DNA of 24,000 bases from Desulfurococcus sp. (GCF_038881575.1 NZ_JAVZPN010000001.1:55138-79137), one strand, 5' to 3'. Counted from the first letter of the stretch, positions 2,711-21,717 are shown. Translations and numbers: made by a program. The notes: a model not told the origin generated them from the sequence alone.

Positions 2711-2781
2711 TTATCCAGGATGCTGGGCAAAAATCTGGTAGCAATACCGCCTTCTCCCCGCCCTAAGGGGCAGGGCTTTCG
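2711..2781 (-). repeat. Orphan copy of the IS200/IS605 (TnpB) right-end-like sequence
   Basis: The reverse complement of 2754-2769 is CCCTTAGGGCGGGGAG, 1 mismatch to the 16-mer at the tnpB stop (15651-15666). A downstream GCTACCA block and an ATCC..GAT block sit at the same offsets as in the reference copy. Confidence 0.6.
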
Positions 2782-3274
2782 GTTGTATGCATCACTGTTA
2801 CTAAGACAGCTCGACGTAGGCCATGCTTGCCGTGGGAACTAATGAAAAGAACGCTGGATCTGTTTGTAAGTAGCAAAGCCTACACCTGAGTGAGATCTTT
2901 AAAAGAATAAGAATGTATACTGGGAATCCCATGAACCGTTGCAAGCATTGAAGCCAGGTATATTAATACTCCACTTACTGTCACCTTACTGAGGGACATT
3001 GCATCTATGCCGGCATCAAGTGCGAAGGTAAATAATGGTGCTGTGATTTGCGCTGTTGATTTGAATACCTTTAAGAGCTTGGGATCAAAGTTACGTGCTT
3101 AATTGACCATAGCGCGGCAAGGATTAGGGATTGTTTTAAGATGAGATTAAACACTGTGCAGGAGACAAACCTGTTCTAGAGAATATTGATATGCTTCTTA
3201 AGAAGCATCTGTGGAAACAACGTGGGAAACCATATCTAGAGCTGATGCACCTTGCATCGATTAAGTATGCAAGT

Positions 3275-10680: not shown

Positions 10681-10768
10681 ATCAATGATTGAACACAGTA
10701 GGCTCCATAAGGGGGCAACCCAGCAGCTCGCGGAATTAGTGAAATCCCTGAGTAGGGGAATCATTGAT
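10681..10768 (+). repeat. IS right-end-like segment enclosed by a perfect 10-bp inverted repeat
   Basis: ATCAATGATT (10681-10690) pairs with AATCATTGAT (10759-10768). The interior has CCATAAGGGGG and AATCCCTGA (10743-10751), the latter identical to the 9-mer near the end of the tnpB right end (15697-15705). Confidence 0.4.
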
Positions 10769-13191: not shown

Positions 13192-13965
13192 CTTATTCAG
13201 GGGATTCGGGCTTCATAGGGTTTGATATTGTTTGATATCAAGTCCTCTGCCCTTGGGTTCGGGTCTGGTGAATACTTGTGATCACTTGTAAGTACTTCTA
13301 AATACTTTCTTCATCCCCTCATCCCTTGTTCCCCCGCTCTGTCTGGCTTCACTCTTCATTGCGGGGGCGCTTTGGGGTGACCCGGGCACCCCCGCATACG
13401 CCTGCATAGCTTTTAACCAGATGTTTGTTGCTCCAATAGAGTCTCTATCCATTTTTAGTCTGCATTTTATGCATATAGCTAATCTATTGATGTACACTAG
13501 TCTGCTTCTGCATCTTGGGCACAGTGACGAGGTGTTTCTCGGGTCTACAACTACTATTGGGATGTTGTACTCCAATGCCTTGCTCACTATGGAGTGAATG
13601 AGCCTTCTGTACGCAAACCTCGCCAGCTTCCACCTAATGCTCTTCTCTCTGCTGTTCGCACTTTCTAGAAGCTTATCGAGGCTCTCTAGCACTATGGCGT
13701 GTCTGAGTTTGAAGGCTTTTAGAGTCAGCTTCTTGGCTGCCTTCCAGCACCAGTCAACAACAATATTCCTAGACCTCCTGTGCAATGACCTAACCCTATT
13801 CAGGATTCTGCTATTGTACCTCCACATCCTCGGATACCTCCTCTGAAGCTCCTCAGCTCTAGCCCTCTTGCTCAAAGCCTCTACAAACCTCGTCCTATAC
13901 CTCTTGACTTCAAATCCATCGAATGTTGTAAGTTGCTTGAGGTTTACAACTGAAAGCCTCGCCAT
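13192..13965 (-). mobile_element. 5'-truncated IS200/IS605-family (TnpB-only, IS1341-like) element remnant
   Basis: Holds the tnpB 3' two-thirds plus ~90 bp of right end. The right end finishes with the reverse complement AATCCCCTGA (13197-13206), directly abutting the thi4 TAG (13189-13191). Confidence 0.7.
13282..13965 (-). pseudogene. tnpB: Truncated tnpB (RuvC-II/III and zinc finger retained; N-terminal WED/REC region missing)
   Basis: IVLESLDKL (RuvC-II Glu), CPRC...CIKC zinc finger, MDRDSIGATNI (RuvC-III Asp). It begins at LSVVNLKQ, where an intact copy has LAVDINEK, so the RuvC-I Asp appears replaced by Val. Confidence 0.7.
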
Positions 13966-13983
13966 TTATGGCGGGGATGAAGA

Positions 13984-13990
13984 TTTATAA
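13984..13990 (+). promoter_or_regulatory. TATA box candidate for the small RHH-like ORF
   Basis: TTTATAA (TTTATAAGC), centred ~40 nt upstream of TTG 14027. Confidence 0.3.
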
Positions 13991-14026
13991 GCCTCTGTAT
14001 TCTGTTTCTGGTTATGGTGCTCTAGC

Positions 14027-14173
14027 TTGAGCGAGCGAGAGAAGGCTACTGAGGATGTGAAGGTTAGGCCTAGCACTAAGAGGAAGCTAGATGCTTTGAA
14101 GTCCCATCCTAGGGAGACGTATGACCAGGTTATAACAAGGCTTATAGAGTTCTATGAGAAGCATAAGCAGTAG
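14027..14173 (+). CDS. Small ribbon-helix-helix/antitoxin-like protein (38-48 aa; below the ORF-track cutoff)
   Basis: Manual translation from TTG 14027 (or GTG 14057): (L)SEREKATEDVKVRPSTKRKLDALKSHPRETYDQVITRLIEFYEKHKQ*. The pattern xVxxxTxxxLxxLKxxxxESxxxVIxxL resembles small archaeal CopG/VapB-like antitoxins. Confidence 0.35.
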   Translation: MSEREKATEDVKVRPSTKRKLDALKSHPRETYDQVITRLIEFYEKHKQ

Positions 14174-14186
14174 AGGTTTTTCTTCA

Positions 14187-14537
14187 ATGGGCGATGAGGG
14201 TTTCCTAACCCTGGCTATTGGGGTGAGGGTTAGCCCCGAGCCCGAGGCTGTAGAGCTTCTAAAGAGGTATAGAGATGCTCTGAACTATGCTATTAAAGTG
14301 GTTATAGAGAACAAAGCAACATCGTTGAGTAAGGCCCATAAACTTTTGTACAACACCTTGAAGAATAGGTTCGGATTACCATCGAGAATAGCTCAAGACT
14401 GCTATAGAGAGGCTATTGTGATTGTAAAGTCTTGGCTTAAGAACCCGAGGCGTGGGAGAATACCGAGGGTTAAAACGCTTAGGATGTGGCTAGCCCATGG
14501 ATATGGCTACAGGATTAGAAATGGGGTTCAGCTCTGA
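14187..14537 (+). pseudogene. tnpB: tnpB N-terminal segment (WED/REC region)
   Basis: LTLAIGVRVSPEPEAVELLKRYRDALNYAI...DCYREAIVIVKSWLKN...PRVKTLRMWL is the typical TnpB/OrfB N-terminal pattern. It ends at TGA 14535-14537, before any RuvC motif. Confidence 0.65.
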
Positions 14538-14781
14538 TGTAGGTTTATGTTGGTTGATGTCATCGCCTCATCTCTTTTCCCCTGCATTGGTCTTGGGTTT
14601 GCATCACCCTTAGGGGCGTTCAGGGTGACCCCGGGCACCCCACATCTTGCTGTGTCTCGGGGAGAGCCGCCATCTATATTATCAAACGGCTCTCGATCCC
14701 TCATCGAGGTACCTCCGCGTATATTACTGTATCAAGGGTGTTTATAAGCGTTTCCATCATTATCAACCGATACGAACAGAT
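14538..14781 (-). mobile_element. Nested relic of a second tnpB 3' end (boundaries approximate)
   Basis: 14561-14645 is a same-strand repeat of 13311-13395: CATCGCCTCATCTCTT vs CATCCCCTCATCCCTT, and GGTGACCCCGGGCACCC vs GGTGACCCGGGCACCC. The minus-strand translation ...CGVPGVTLNAPKGDANPRPMQGKRDEAM parallels ...AGVPGSPQSAPAMKSEARQSGGTRDEGM. Confidence 0.6.
14741..14747 (+). promoter_or_regulatory. TATA box candidate inside the nested relic, upstream of the tnpB C-terminal segment
   Basis: TTTATAA (TTTATAAGC), centred ~38 nt upstream of ATG 14782. Confidence 0.3.
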
Positions 14782-15657
14782 ATGAAAAACGAAACAGTTG
14801 CACTAGGCTTTGCTGAGATCATTGGAGGCTATAGACTTAGGATAATTGGCTGGGACAAGAGATATGATCAGTACGAGAGCAGAGAGGCTAGGTTGGTGTA
14901 TAGAAACGGTAAGATGTTTCTTATGATAGCGAAGAGGGTTCCAAAGCCGGCTAAGTATGCTCCAAGAGGTGTCTTGGCGGTAGATATTAACGAGAAGCAT
15001 ATTGTTCTAGGGAACACTGTTTTTGAGAAGAGGGTTGAGACGCCAATCAAGAGGGCTCTACACTTCAAGATACTTGCTGAGAACCTCATGAAGAAGTATA
15101 GCCATGGGAAATACAGGGCATGGACTAGGAAAAAGGTTCTCGAGAGGATTAGAAGCTTCCACAGAAGAGCTAGAAACATTCTCTTGGACTGGGCAAGAAA
15201 AACAGGCTTGGCGATTGTTAGAGAAGCTATGAAAAACCTCTACGCAGTCGCTAGAGAGGACCTCAACGGCTTGATTGAATCTGTTAGAGAGCTTCCGAAG
15301 AGCCATAGAAAGAAACTTATTCTACTCTCTTACAACAAGCTAGTGTATTGGATAGACTGGCAAGCAGAGAAGCATGGCGTGCCAGTGATAACAGTTGATC
15401 CCAGAGGCACATCATCAACATGTCCAAGATGCGGAGCGAAATTCAGAGAAAATGGCTACAGAAGGCTAAAATGCATGAAATGTGGATTCGAAGGAGATAG
15501 AGATACCATTGCTATCCTAAACATTGAGAGAAGAGCTTTAGCCAAGCTCCAGATGGGAGGAGCCCTGGCCCCCTCGACTGCCCCGCAAATGAAAGATGTA
15601 GCCCCGAATAGATGCGGGGAACCAATGAACCCCCTAAAGGGAACCCTCGCCCTTTAG
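14782..15657 (+). pseudogene. tnpB: tnpB C-terminal segment (complete RuvC triad and zinc finger; lacks the first ~120 aa)
   Basis: LAVDINEK (RuvC-I Asp), AVAREDLNG (RuvC-II Glu), CPRCG...CMKCG zinc finger, EGDRDTIAILNI (RuvC-III Asp). The ORF-track start 14647 reads through the nested relic. ATG 14782 is the first start within TnpB-like sequence. Confidence 0.7.
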
Positions 15658-15708
15658 GGCGGGGAGGAGGTCAGCTGCTACCACCAGCCGCGGTGGAATC
15701 CCTGATTC
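15644..15708 (+). repeat. Reference copy of the IS right-end sequence (overlaps the tnpB stop; expected omega-RNA scaffold 3' part)
   Basis: CCCTCGCCCTTTAGGGCGGGGAGGAGGTCAGCTGCTACCACCAGCCGCGGTGGAATCCCTGATTC. It contains GCCC/GGGC and CCACC/GGTGG hairpin arms. The 16-mer core at 15651-15666 recurs at 2754-2769(-), 17007-17022(+) and 21443-21458(-). Confidence 0.65.
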
Positions 15709-16346
15709 TACCTGGTAAAATACTCGTCAAGGCCAAGGCTAAGGGGCGAATACTATACTATAAAGACGCAGGCTTCGCAAGGAAACAGGTTGAAGCAGGT
15801 GAGACAGTAGAGATCTAGCTCATGTTTTCTTCGACTTAAACCCGCAATCCCTGTTCTATCTAGTAATTCAAGTAGTTCATTGAGGTATGGCATATCGTTT
15901 CCTCCAATCATATCGCTCCACACCTTTTTGTTTCATTAAGGCATAAAGAGATACAGCTCGACACAGAAAGCTATAATCTAATGTTTCTGCCCAGTTCACC
16001 AGGGGAATTTATATCGCCAGGTGAATACAGGTGCTGAAAATTTTTCGGTGTTTAGAGGAGGGGTTTATATGGGTTGGTGGGCTGGGTGGAGTCCCTAGGT
16101 GAAACCATATAAAATGATTGGAGCGAACACCCAGGGAGAAACAACAATATCCTTATATATCATTCTAATTCTACTAGTCCCCTGGGAAGGCTGATGTGTA
16201 CGTGAAAAACCCTCTAGGGGGAGGCAAGCCTGAAGGCGAGTTTATGATGATGCCCGGTGTCTCAGTGCTCCTTAGCGATGCTAACCCGGCTAGTGTTAAA
16301 GCATATATAAATGCTGTCCTCAAGTGTGGTGAATGCTAGCCATAAT

Positions 16347-16884: not shown

Positions 16885-16982
16885 GACGCATCCAAGTTTG
16901 AAAACAATATACTGTGGCACCCAGGTCCAGGAATCAGTTGACAATAAACTATAAACCTGGGGCTCTACAAGTTCATGGAAAG

Positions 16983-17031
16983 CCCTAGTAGGGGCAAAGC
17001 CCTCATCCTTTAGTGCGGGGAGCCGTCGACC
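16983..17031 (+). repeat. Orphan copy of the IS right-end-like sequence
   Basis: 17007-17022 is CCTTTAGTGCGGGGAG (1 mismatch to the reference core). The flank AAAGCCCTCATCC matches the 2.7-kb copy. It supplies the last ~10 codons and the stop of the 17003-17341 gene. Confidence 0.6.
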
Positions 17032-21435: not shown

Positions 21436-21466
21436 CTGACGGCTCCTCGCCCTAAGGGGTGATGAC
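21401..21466 (-). repeat. Orphan copy of the IS right-end-like sequence, inverted relative to the 17.0-kb copy
   Basis: The reverse complement of 21443-21458 is CCCTTAGGGCGAGGAG (2 mismatches). It is followed by GGAGCCGTC (shared with the 17.0-kb copy), GTCAGCT and CGGTGGATCC (shared with the reference copy). It overlaps the last 12 codons of the ATPase gene. Confidence 0.6.
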
Positions 21467-21717
21467 TCTATCCTCGCTGGGGCTTTCCTCATTTCTTCGG
21501 GTATCCCTCACTAGGGCGGCATCACTTGTACAGGGCCCGCTGTCAGCCTGCGAGTGGTGCATAGCGAGTCTAGCAGACAATAAGCTAATGCACCAACTCC
21601 AAGTATTGCTGTCTAGTAAAAAGCTTATAAACAAGCTCCCCCGCCTTGAAAGACAAGGCCTCATGAAGCTGTGAACCCGTTAAAAGACGTATTCAGGGAA
21701 CCCTGGGAAAAAGCTCT

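What the first reader, a model, noticed from the sequence alone, without database searches (positions are those of the whole stretch)
15500..15730. Predicted omega-RNA region of the TnpB element, and possible stand-alone scaffold relics at orphan sites
In characterised IS200/IS605 TnpB systems the guide (omega/re) RNA is encoded by the tnpB 3' end plus the right end, and the guide is the flanking DNA just outside the element. Here the corresponding segment has paired arms (GCCC/GGGC around the stop; CCACC/GGTGG at 15681-15696) and ends near AATCCCTGATTC (15708). Its 16-nt core recurs with at most 2 mismatches at 2754-2769(-), 17007-17022(+) and 21443-21458(-). Looser copies lie at 10701-10751(+), 13192-13262(-) and 14598-14620(-). 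At 21467-21664 the minus strand even keeps a faint TnpB C-terminal-like reading (…DAALVRDTRRNEESP…). These orphans would be PATE/MITE-like mini-elements or solo omega-RNA genes whose 'guides' are now host sequence. One example lies ~55 nt upstream of the C-N hydrolase start; two others lie at the ends of T4SS genes.
Basis: inference. Interest (0 to 1): 0.6.

Follow-up and report, generated by a model that had tools for sequence, protein, structure and literature searches.

The report
TnpB guide-RNA end and hairpin relics
The segment is the right end of an ordinary IS608-like TnpB insertion sequence in a Desulfurococcus-type archaeon, with a conserved 128-base guide-RNA-like block, but most of the "orphan" copies are only the transposase-recognition hairpin and lack the guide-RNA scaffold.

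Summary
The 16-nt core does recur (4 sites in the window against 0.01 expected; about 120 hairpin copies in the 1.63-Mb genome). It is the subterminal hairpin shared by the left and right ends of IS200/IS605 elements, not the omega-RNA scaffold.

The sister genome G001 keeps the empty site TTAC|CTGCTACC... in an intact glycosidase gene.

The last 128 nt (15547-15674) are conserved across genera and are retained in protein-less MITEs. One helix shows compensatory changes that alter the TnpB residues, so an omega-RNA scaffold is likely. Transcription was not tested.

The orphans are mixed:
- 2745-2784(-) is a 39-nt "solo" with a left-end foot, one hairpin and a right-end tail, and no scaffold.
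- ~16975-17031(+) is a short right-end relic of another family.
- 21436-21663(-) and 14526-14808(-) are real MITEs that keep 3' blocks.
- 10701-10751 is not a repeat.

PATEs that carry omega RNAs are already published, so this is a new member of a known kind. The solos number 43 in this genome and occur in 28 of 201 genomes of the order. They are the only mildly new observation.

The parts
13944..13947 (+). TTAC, the target/cleavage tetranucleotide immediately 5' of the left end (predicted TAM)
   Evidence: TTAC precedes all left ends and all solos, and flanks vary upstream of it. Empty sites in G001 read TTAC|flank.
13948..13992 (+). Left end: foot AACTGAAAG (guide tetranucleotide AAAG), imperfect hairpin 13957-13976, then GGGGATG and a TTTATAAGC TATA-like box
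   Evidence: It is 1 of 16 left-end-type copies in the genome. It aligns with the left end of the Thermogladius homologue.
14027..14173 (+). Small passenger ORF (DUF7557, RHH-like) between the left end and tnpB
   Evidence: Pfam PF24434, 32.3 bits against a cut-off of 25. The ORF is absent from the Thermogladius homologue.
14187..14525 (+). tnpB, 5' segment
   Evidence: It aligns colinearly with the intact Thermogladius element L144 up to 14525. TIGR01765 gives a weak hit.
14526..14808 (-). 283-nt MITE of a second TnpB family ('B') that splits tnpB. It keeps about 127 nt of that family's tnpB 3' end plus right end, and about 40 nt of its left end.
   Evidence: It appears as a gap in the alignment to L144. 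Positions 14523-14649 are 98% identical to the 3' end of a full-length copy on contig 8, and the other end matches about 1450 nt away in full copies.
14809..15657 (+). tnpB, 3' segment (RuvC and zinc-finger part), with stop codon TAG at 15655-15657
   Evidence: NCBIfam NF040570 guided_TnpB, 102.8 bits against a cut-off of 100. Pfam PF07282, E = 1.8e-18.
15547..15674 (+). Conserved 128-nt block, the predicted omega-RNA scaffold plus right end. It holds helix 15555-15575, helix 15581-15587/15613-15619, small hairpin 15632-15641, guide tetranucleotide GAAC 15641-15644, right-end hairpin 15645-15664 and tail AGGAGGTCAG 15665-15674.
   Evidence: Conserved at 73-94% identity in 20 of 41 related genomes. 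Retained in MITEs. The covariance model gives 146.5 bits.
15675..15690 (+). Flank that would serve as the guide. It is the remnant of a host GH36/raffinose-synthase-like gene.
   Evidence: G001 has the intact gene with TTAC|CTGCTACCACCAGCCA at this point.
13203..13965 (-). Second tnpB ('T2'), 5'-truncated, with its own right end flush against the thi4 stop codon
   Evidence: PF07282 and NF040570 hits. Homology with G001 ends at 13202. Its 3' coding end 13305-13403 gives a weak covariance-model hit of 21.7 bits in which helices 1 and 2 are kept.
2745..2784 (-). Solo hairpin: left-end foot, one hairpin and a degenerate right-end tail, with no scaffold. It sits inside a 417-nt insert (2728-3144) that G001 lacks.
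16975..17031 (+). About 57-nt terminal relic of a third family (tail GGAGCCGTC), with no left end and no detectable scaffold
   Evidence: Only 46 nt are similar to contig 1 position 188457. The relic is shared with G001. The covariance model gives no hit.
21436..21663 (-). About 228-nt MITE-like element of the third family. It has a left-end-like hairpin plus TATA box at 21628-21663, and a 3' block plus right end (tail GGAGCCGTCAG) that abuts the stop codon of the 642-aa ORF.
   Evidence: The left part matches contig 3 position 199735 and the right-end tail matches contigs 4 and 2. The 3' 115-130 nt are conserved in G001, G040 and G030. G001 has a further B-family MITE inserted into its tail.

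Best explanation
Window 13948-15674 is a non-autonomous IS608-like member of the IS200/IS605 family. It carries a small DUF7557 ORF and a tnpB gene that is now split by a MITE of another family.

It inserted 3' of TTAC, and each end carries the same imperfect 8-bp hairpin. As in IS608, the four bases 5' of each hairpin would pair with the cleavage site. That gives AAAG with TTAC at the left end, and GAAC with TCAG, 10 nt 3' of the hairpin, at the right end.

The last 128 nt (15547-15674) overlap the tnpB 3' end and most likely encode the omega-RNA scaffold. The guide would be the adjoining host flank, 15675 to about 15690, and the TAM would be TTAC.

The recurring 16-mer is the transposase hairpin, so its other copies are of mixed kinds. 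They include the element's own left end, right ends of other families, two real MITEs that keep a 3' block, and a 39-nt 'solo'. A solo joins a left-end foot and hairpin to a right-end tail. It most likely arose when the interior was deleted between the two near-identical end hairpins. Solos lack the scaffold and cannot be guide-RNA genes.

Shown: the boundaries, the target site, the conservation, the pair covariation, and the make-up of each orphan. Inferred: transcription, TnpB binding, and how solos form.
For: Boundaries and target site:
- Five right-end copies diverge directly after GGTCAG, and 16 left ends plus 43 solos diverge directly before TTAC.
- Homology with G001 resumes at 15675.
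- G001 has the empty site GAGAATTAC|CTGCTACC in an intact 682-aa glycosidase gene.
- MITEs of this family are present or absent between G000 and G001 with clean TTAC|flank empty sites. Examples are 173, 232, 191 and 290 nt long.

TnpB identity: NF040570 scores 102.8 bits, above its cut-off.

IS608 rules come from PMC3201880: TTAC target, right-end cleavage 10 nt 3' of the hairpin, guide AAAG.

Scaffold:
- The 128-nt block is found in 20 of 41 relatives.
- More than 12 protein-less copies in G002 begin exactly at the block.
- Helix CCCCGCA/TGCGGGG is 90.6% paired. It has CG, GC, AU and GU variants that change Pro to Leu and Cys-Gly to Trp-Arg.
- Whole-structure covariation exceeds all 500 shuffles, and 78.6% of cells pair against at most 53% in the slid controls.

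Orphans.

Solos as left-end/right-end hybrids:
- They carry left-end-specific hairpin variants (TTCTRTGG, CCATTTATGG, CTCATCC) joined to the right-end tail.
- At one orthologous tRNA-flanked site, G000 has a tnpB relic plus right end where G001 has a solo. Both share the rare GGGCTGG variant.
Against: - No RNA data were available.
- No Rfam family matches the window.
- A single-sequence fold of the block is not unusual (z = -1.19).
- Helix 1 is only 64.5% paired.
- The covariation could equally reflect a top-strand ssDNA structure used in transposition.
- This copy's tnpB is broken, so any omega RNA would need a TnpB supplied in trans.
- The only tnpA in the assembly lacks its catalytic-tyrosine helix, and G001 has none. 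Current mobility is therefore unproven.
- Against solos being inert collapse products: at least 7 solos are present or absent between G000 and G001 with clean TTAC empty sites. That is about as many as the polymorphic MITEs.
Confidence: 0.75

Rival explanations
1. One reading: the dispersed copies of the core are stand-alone omega-RNA scaffold relics or solo guide-RNA genes whose guides are now host sequence.
For: Two of the sites are MITEs that keep about 115-130 nt of a tnpB 3' end plus right end: 14526-14808(-) and 21436-21663(-). The genome holds about 13 further copies of the T1-type block that cover at least 100 of its 128 nt without a full tnpB. PATEs that carry omega RNAs used in trans are described in PMC10055086.
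Against: The core is the end hairpin, which left ends also carry. The sites at 2745-2784(-) and ~16975-17031(+) share only 38-46 nt with any other copy and fail the covariance model. Genome-wide, 43 of about 120 copies are 39-nt solos with a left-end foot where the scaffold should be. No guide has a second TTAC-flanked match in the genome.
Confidence: 0.2
2. The 39-nt solos are REP-like minimal mobile units in their own right. TnpA would insert or excise them at TTAC, and they would not be dead products of internal deletion.
For: - At least 7 solos differ between G000 and G001 with exact TTAC|flank empty sites and otherwise conserved flanks.
- Only 1 shared site shows a longer element in one genome and a solo in the other.
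- Near-consensus solos occur in 28 of 201 genomes from 7 of 13 families of the order, while the reversed-pattern control finds none.
- Both boundaries are sharp.
Against: - A solo has one hairpin and only the left guide AAAG. By the IS608 pairing rule, AAAG mismatches the last base of TCAG, so right-end cleavage is not expected. This is an inference from PMC3201880.
- Solos carry several different left-end-specific hairpin variants, which argues for many independent origins.
- Orthologous solos are much more diverged (73%) than their flanks (87.6%; Fisher p = 8e-18), so they are not conserved.
- There is no RAYT-like domesticated transposase. G001 has no Y1 gene at all.
Confidence: 0.25
3. The 128-nt block is conserved only because it encodes the TnpB C-terminus and the cis-acting right end, and it has no RNA function.
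For: The block overlaps coding sequence. The right-end hairpin, guide tetranucleotide and cleavage site are needed by TnpA. The single-sequence fold is unremarkable.
Against: The block is kept at 83-91% identity in MITEs that have no reading frame, and these MITEs start exactly at its 5' edge. IS608 needs only about 45 nt of right end (PMC3201880). Paired positions change together while the encoded residues change.
Confidence: 0.12

Closest known systems
IS608 of Helicobacter pylori (IS200/IS605 family, TnpA 'peel and paste' transposition)
   Same: Both insert 3' of TTAC without a duplication. Both have subterminal imperfect hairpins at each end and the left guide tetranucleotide AAAG. In both, the right cleavage site lies 10 nt 3' of the hairpin foot. 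Here TCAG/GAAC replaces IS608's TCAA/GAAT, and the last pair changes from A:T to G:C. The GAAT value is from my own knowledge; the other IS608 values are from PMC3201880.
   Different: The host is archaeal. The element has tnpB only, plus a DUF7557 ORF. The left cleavage site is 9 nt from the hairpin foot rather than 19. The left and right hairpins are almost identical in sequence. No intact tnpA is present in this assembly or in G001.
TnpB omega/re-RNA of ISDra2 and the Geobacillus ISGst elements, and PATEs that carry omega RNAs (Meers et al. 2023, PMC10055086)
   Same: The scaffold is encoded by the tnpB 3' end plus the right end. The guide is the flank and the TAM equals the TnpA target. 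Protein-less mini-elements keep the scaffold and would rely on TnpB in trans.
   Different: No expression or cleavage data exist here. The sequence and fold are unrelated to any Rfam model. The block is short (128 nt) and contains the TnpA hairpin. An alternative long-range pairing, CCCTAAAGGG with CCCTTTAGGG, is possible.
Sense-overlapping transcripts at the 3' end of IS1341-type tnpB in archaea (Gomes-Filho et al. 2015, PMC4615843)
   Same: Archaeal tnpB genes with a non-coding RNA that overlaps their 3' end.
   Different: Those were shown by RNA-seq in Halobacterium. This is a crenarchaeal family, known here from sequence only.
Bacterial REP elements and RAYT transposases (REPtrons)
   Same: The solos are short single palindromic units derived from IS200/IS605-type ends. 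They are dispersed at tens of copies and are not found inside intact long ORFs.
   Different: The solos have no GTAG tag and no domesticated RAYT flanked by them. Per PMC6006769, REP/RAYT systems are bacterial and archaea have only IS200-type TnpA. Orthologous solos diverge faster than their flanks.
Solo LTRs of retroelements (analogy only)
   Same: A single hybrid terminal repeat is left after recombination between the two similar ends of an element.
   Different: The repeats here are about 20-nt hairpins, not LTRs of hundreds of bp, and the mechanism is inferred.

Membership tests
IS200/IS605 family (IS608-like) | Subterminal imperfect palindromes at both ends, on the same strand | tested here: met
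   The hairpins lie at 13957-13976 and 15645-15664 and include a T.G wobble. The same hairpin occurs in all left-end and right-end copies.
IS200/IS605 family (IS608-like) | Insertion 3' of a fixed tetra- or pentanucleotide with no target duplication, and a precise empty site | tested here: met
   TTAC|element|flank in one genome against TTAC|flank in the sister genome, for this element and for 4 or more MITEs.
IS200/IS605 family (IS608-like) | A Y1 HUH transposase (TnpA) is available | tested here: not met
   The only PF01797 hit is on contig 22 at 258-617. It covers profile positions 3-97 of 121 and so lacks the tyrosine helix. G001 has none. A multi-copy IS collapsed at contig ends may hide a further copy.
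TnpB (RNA-guided nuclease, NF040570) | A match above the curated cut-off that includes the RuvC and zinc-finger C-terminal part | tested here: met
   102.8 bits against a cut-off of 100 for the 3' segment alone. PF07282 gives 66.9 bits. The gene is interrupted at 14526-14808, so this copy is inactive.
omega RNA of TnpB | Encoded on the tnpB strand, overlapping its 3' end, and ending at the right-end boundary | tested here: met
   The conserved block at 15547-15674 ends at the boundary mapped.
omega RNA of TnpB | Conserved secondary structure supported by covariation | tested here: inconclusive
   Helix 2 is 90.6% paired, with double changes. Overall covariation exceeds all 500 shuffles, and the slid controls are far lower. 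However, helix 1 is weak, two alternative 3' structures fit equally well, and an ssDNA structure cannot be excluded.
omega RNA of TnpB | A transcript exists, is bound by TnpB and guides cleavage next to the TAM | not testable with these tools
   No RNA-seq or biochemistry is available. There is no Rfam match.
PATE/MITE of IS200/IS605 | A left end and a right end bracket a short interior with no ORF | tested here: met
   Met for 14526-14808(-) and 21436-21663(-), and for 4 or more T1-type MITEs elsewhere in G000. Not met for 2745-2784(-), ~16975-17031(+) or 10701-10751.
REP/RAYT system | A single-copy domesticated RAYT gene flanked by its REPs, with a conserved GTAG tag | tested here: not met
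   There is no RAYT-type gene. The only Y1 gene is IS200-like, lies inside a left end, and is truncated. The tag here is TTAC, outside the unit.

The most novel reading that the evidence does not exclude
The 39-nt solos (TTAC|AACTGAAAG, one hairpin, AGGAGGTCAG|) may be an archaeal counterpart of bacterial REPs. [quoted passage not shown] That would make it the smallest mobile element of the family. It would explain the 7 or more clean presence/absence differences between two genomes that are about 93% identical, and its spread across 7 families of the order.
Probability: 0.25. Interest if true: 0.6.

Novelty: new member of a known kind. Interest (0 to 1): 0.35.

Why it matters
For annotation, this fixes the true ends, target site (TTAC, the predicted TAM) and guide position of a TnpB family that is widespread in Desulfurococcales. 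That information is needed before anyone tests these thermophilic TnpBs as RNA-guided nucleases.

It also shows that a short recurring motif at a tnpB stop codon cannot be read as a guide-RNA gene. Here the motif is the transposase hairpin, and a third of its copies are 39-nt end-fusion relics.

The comparison with the sister genome documents three things. MITEs have been active recently. An IS-associated 4.4-kb deletion truncated a glycosidase gene. There is a class of solo hairpins whose origin is a small open question: collapse or mobility.

Tried and rejected
- An Rfam scan of the window found nothing.
- A single-sequence fold of the block was not significant (z = -1.19).
- RNAalifold on the raw MAFFT alignment recovered only helix 2 and a mis-registered right-end hairpin. 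I therefore tested hand-defined structures.
- I searched for second targets of 23 flank-derived guides with up to 2 mismatches. None is preceded by TTAC, so there is no sign of exapted guides.
- The site 10701-10751 has no other copy in the genome and no covariance-model hit. I rejected it as a relic.
- Hairpin stability does not differ between solos and true ends, but detection bias makes this uninformative.
- The test of solos against long ORFs gave 0 of 43 inside. It is biased, because a solo carries stop codons in 4 of 6 frames. I use it only to say that none sits in an intact long ORF.
- The search for related loci with the TnpB protein returned only 7 loci, too few to widen the covariation set.
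- I considered that T1 had simply inserted into T2. The reading frame does not continue across T1, and the right flank is a host glycosidase gene. A deletion between two T1 copies fits better.

Full report
**What is at the site**

The window is contig 1, positions 55138-79137, of a 1.63-Mb, 22-contig archaeal genome with 45% G+C. Close relatives are Desulfurococcaceae, including Thermogladius and Desulfurococcales MAGs.

Positions 14187-15657 encode a TnpB. NF040570 scores 102.8 bits, above its cut-off, and PF07282 gives E = 1.8e-18. Alignment to an 80%-identical intact element from Thermogladius (L144) shows that the gene is split by a 283-nt insert at 14526-14808.

A second, 5'-truncated tnpB lies head to head on the minus strand at 13965-13282. 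A small DUF7557 ORF sits between the left end and tnpB.

**Check of the observation**

That is 4 matches against 0.01 expected.

Iterated nhmmer finds about 120 copies of the surrounding 36-nt motif in the genome. Sorting them by their flanks shows what the motif is:
- 16 copies are left ends, of the form TTAC|AACTGAAAG-hairpin-GGGGATG...TTTATAAGC.
- 28 copies are right ends, of the form ...GGGAAC-hairpin-AGGAGGTCAG|.
- 43 copies have the left-end foot on the 5' side and the right-end tail on the 3' side, with nothing in between. I call these 39-nt units solos.

The motif is therefore the subterminal imperfect palindrome of an IS200/IS605 element, present at both ends.

**Boundaries**

Among right-end copies, similarity stops at GGTCAG. 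I fetched the same-genus complete genome G001, which is about 93% identical, in tiles. Its homology to the window resumes exactly at 15675.

At that point G001 has an intact 682-aa GH36/raffinose-synthase-like gene that reads GAGAATTAC|CTGCTACCACCAGCCACGGTGG. Three conclusions follow:
- The element ends at TCAG 15671-15674.
- It sits 3' of a TTAC.

The left flank of the element is not that gene but the interior of the second tnpB. G000 also lacks 4.4 kb that G001 has at this locus. A deletion between two copies of the element is the simplest account. This is inference.

**Resemblance to IS608**

The anatomy follows the IS608 rules (PMC3201880). These are a TTAC target, a left guide AAAG 5' of the hairpin, and right-end cleavage 10 nt 3' of the hairpin. 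Here TCAG is matched by GAAC, where IS608 has TCAA/GAAT. The GAAT value is from my own knowledge.

**The predicted omega-RNA region**

A DNA search of 40 relatives found the 3' end in 20 of 41 genomes. Many hits start at query position about 170, which is window 15549. G002 alone has more than 12 such copies at 83-88% identity.

Alignment shows a 128-nt block, 15547-15674. It is kept both at the end of full tnpB genes and in short elements made only of a left end, a few tens of bases, and this block. IS608 needs only about 45 nt of right end, so the extra 80 nt are conserved for another reason.

On a 49-sequence alignment (A1) the results were as follows:
- Helix CCCCGCA/TGCGGGG (15581-15587 with 15613-15619) is 90.6% paired. 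One of its pairs appears as GC 33, CG 4, GU 3 and AU 1.
- In full-length copies these changes replace Pro with Leu and Cys-Gly with Trp-Arg while keeping the pairing.
- Overall, 78.6% of cells pair, against at most 53% when partners are slid. Covariation exceeds all 500 shuffles.
- Two alternative structures for the 3' part fit equally well.
- Helix 1 is weak, and a single-sequence fold is unremarkable.

I read this as good but not conclusive support for an omega-RNA scaffold. Transcription is untested, and an ssDNA structure is not excluded. This copy's tnpB is broken, so its RNA would have to work in trans. Meers et al. proposed the same for PATEs (PMC10055086).

**The orphans**

A covariance model built from A1 scores as follows across the window:

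| Site | Score |
|---|---|
| 15545-15674 | 146.5 bits |
| 3' end of the second tnpB, 13305-13403(-), helices 1 and 2 recognisable | 21.7 bits |
| 2747-2837(-) | 15.3 bits |
| B-family insert, 14567-14651(-) | 11.6 bits |
| 21436-21549(-) | 4.9 bits (E = 3.5) |
| 17007 | no hit |
| 10701 | no hit |

BLAST against the genome agrees.

- The site at 2745-2784(-) shares only its 38 nt with other copies. It is a solo inside a 417-nt segment that G001 lacks.
- The site at ~16975-17031(+) shares 46 nt with one other locus. It belongs to a family with tail GGAGCCGTC.
- 21436-21663(-) has a left-end-like hairpin with a TATA box, an interior, and a right end. Its 3' 115-130 nt are conserved in G001 and in two genomes of another family. 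It is a MITE with a scaffold-like block of its own family.
- The insert in tnpB, 14526-14808(-), is a MITE of a further family. Full-length 1.7-kb copies of that family lie on contigs 5, 6 and 8. G001 has another copy of that MITE inserted into the tail of the 21436 element, so that family has been active recently.

**What the solos are**

Evidence for a left-end/right-end hybrid origin:
- Solos carry hairpin variants found only in left ends (TTCTRTGG, CCATTTATGG, CTCATCC), joined to the right-end tail. They are therefore hybrids, with several independent origins.
- At one orthologous tRNA-flanked site, G000 has a tnpB relic plus right end and G001 has a solo. Both share the rare GGGCTGG variant.
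- Orthologous solos are 73% identical against 87.6% for their flanks (p = 8e-18), so they are not under constraint.

These points favour collapse of an element by deletion between its two end hairpins.

Evidence against simple collapse:
- At least 7 solos differ between the two genomes with exact TTAC|flank empty sites. That is about as many as the polymorphic MITEs.
- Near-consensus solos occur in 28 of 201 genomes of the order, while a reversed-pattern control finds none.

A REP-like mobile unit is therefore not excluded. A solo has only the left guide tetranucleotide. G001 has no Y1 transposase, and the only one in G000 is truncated. I put this reading at about 0.25.

**Comparison with what is known, and verdict**

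All of the following are published:
- IS608-type ends and targeting.
- Omega RNA from the tnpB 3' end.
- PATEs that carry omega RNAs (PMC10055086).
- RNAs overlapping archaeal tnpB 3' ends (PMC4615843).

The finding is a correct general expectation applied with a wrong boundary, and with the hairpin mistaken for the scaffold. It is a new member of a known kind. The solos were not found in the literature I searched. REP/RAYT systems are described as bacterial only (PMC6006769). The solos are a modest side observation.

Noticed in passing
window 13203-15674, compared with G001:866586-871030: G000 has the two tnpB elements (2.47 kb) where G001 has 4.4 kb of host DNA, including most of a 682-aa GH36/raffinose-synthase-like gene. 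Only that gene's last 48 or so codons survive, at 15675-15818. This looks like a deletion between two copies of the IS.
   Followed up: partly
window 14027-14173 (+): A small DUF7557 (RHH-like) ORF with a TTTATAAGC box lies inside the element, between the left end and tnpB. The 80%-identical Thermogladius element has no such ORF.
   Followed up: partly
window 2728-3144: This 417-nt segment is absent from G001, which has a clean junction there. It is unique in the genome except for the solo at its end. It replaces the region directly upstream of the 298-aa ORF that starts at 2730.
   Followed up: partly
L139 (G000 contig 22) 170-900: The only Y1 transposase gene of the assembly (258-617) follows a normal left end. 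It stops before the catalytic-tyrosine helix, where a repeat-like segment begins. The complete genome G001 has no Y1 gene, although it holds polymorphic MITEs.
   Followed up: partly
G000 contig ends (starts of C1, C2, C5, C8; ends of C3, C5, C6, C7): Identical left-end or right-end sequences of about 92-119 nt sit at eight contig ends. A multi-copy, probably active IS of this family therefore broke the assembly, and its interior is missing from the contigs.
   Followed up: no
G001:860609-860818, opposite window 21440/21441: G001 has a 211-nt MITE of the 'B' family inserted inside the right-end tail of the shared 21436-21663 element. Together with the copy in the window's tnpB, this shows recent activity of that family in both lineages.
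   Followed up: yes
alignment A1, window 15632-15659: CCCTAAAGGG upstream of the right-end hairpin is complementary to the hairpin's CCCTTTAGGG. A-to-G and T-to-C changes occur together in several lineages. In one G002 subfamily this long-range helix replaces the local hairpin, which suggests that the RNA and ssDNA forms may fold differently.
   Followed up: partly
G000 C3:141129 and 141301; C2:114776(-) and 114987(+): Some solos occur as identical tandem pairs (172 nt apart) or inverted pairs (about 210 nt apart), which recalls REP doublets.
   Followed up: no
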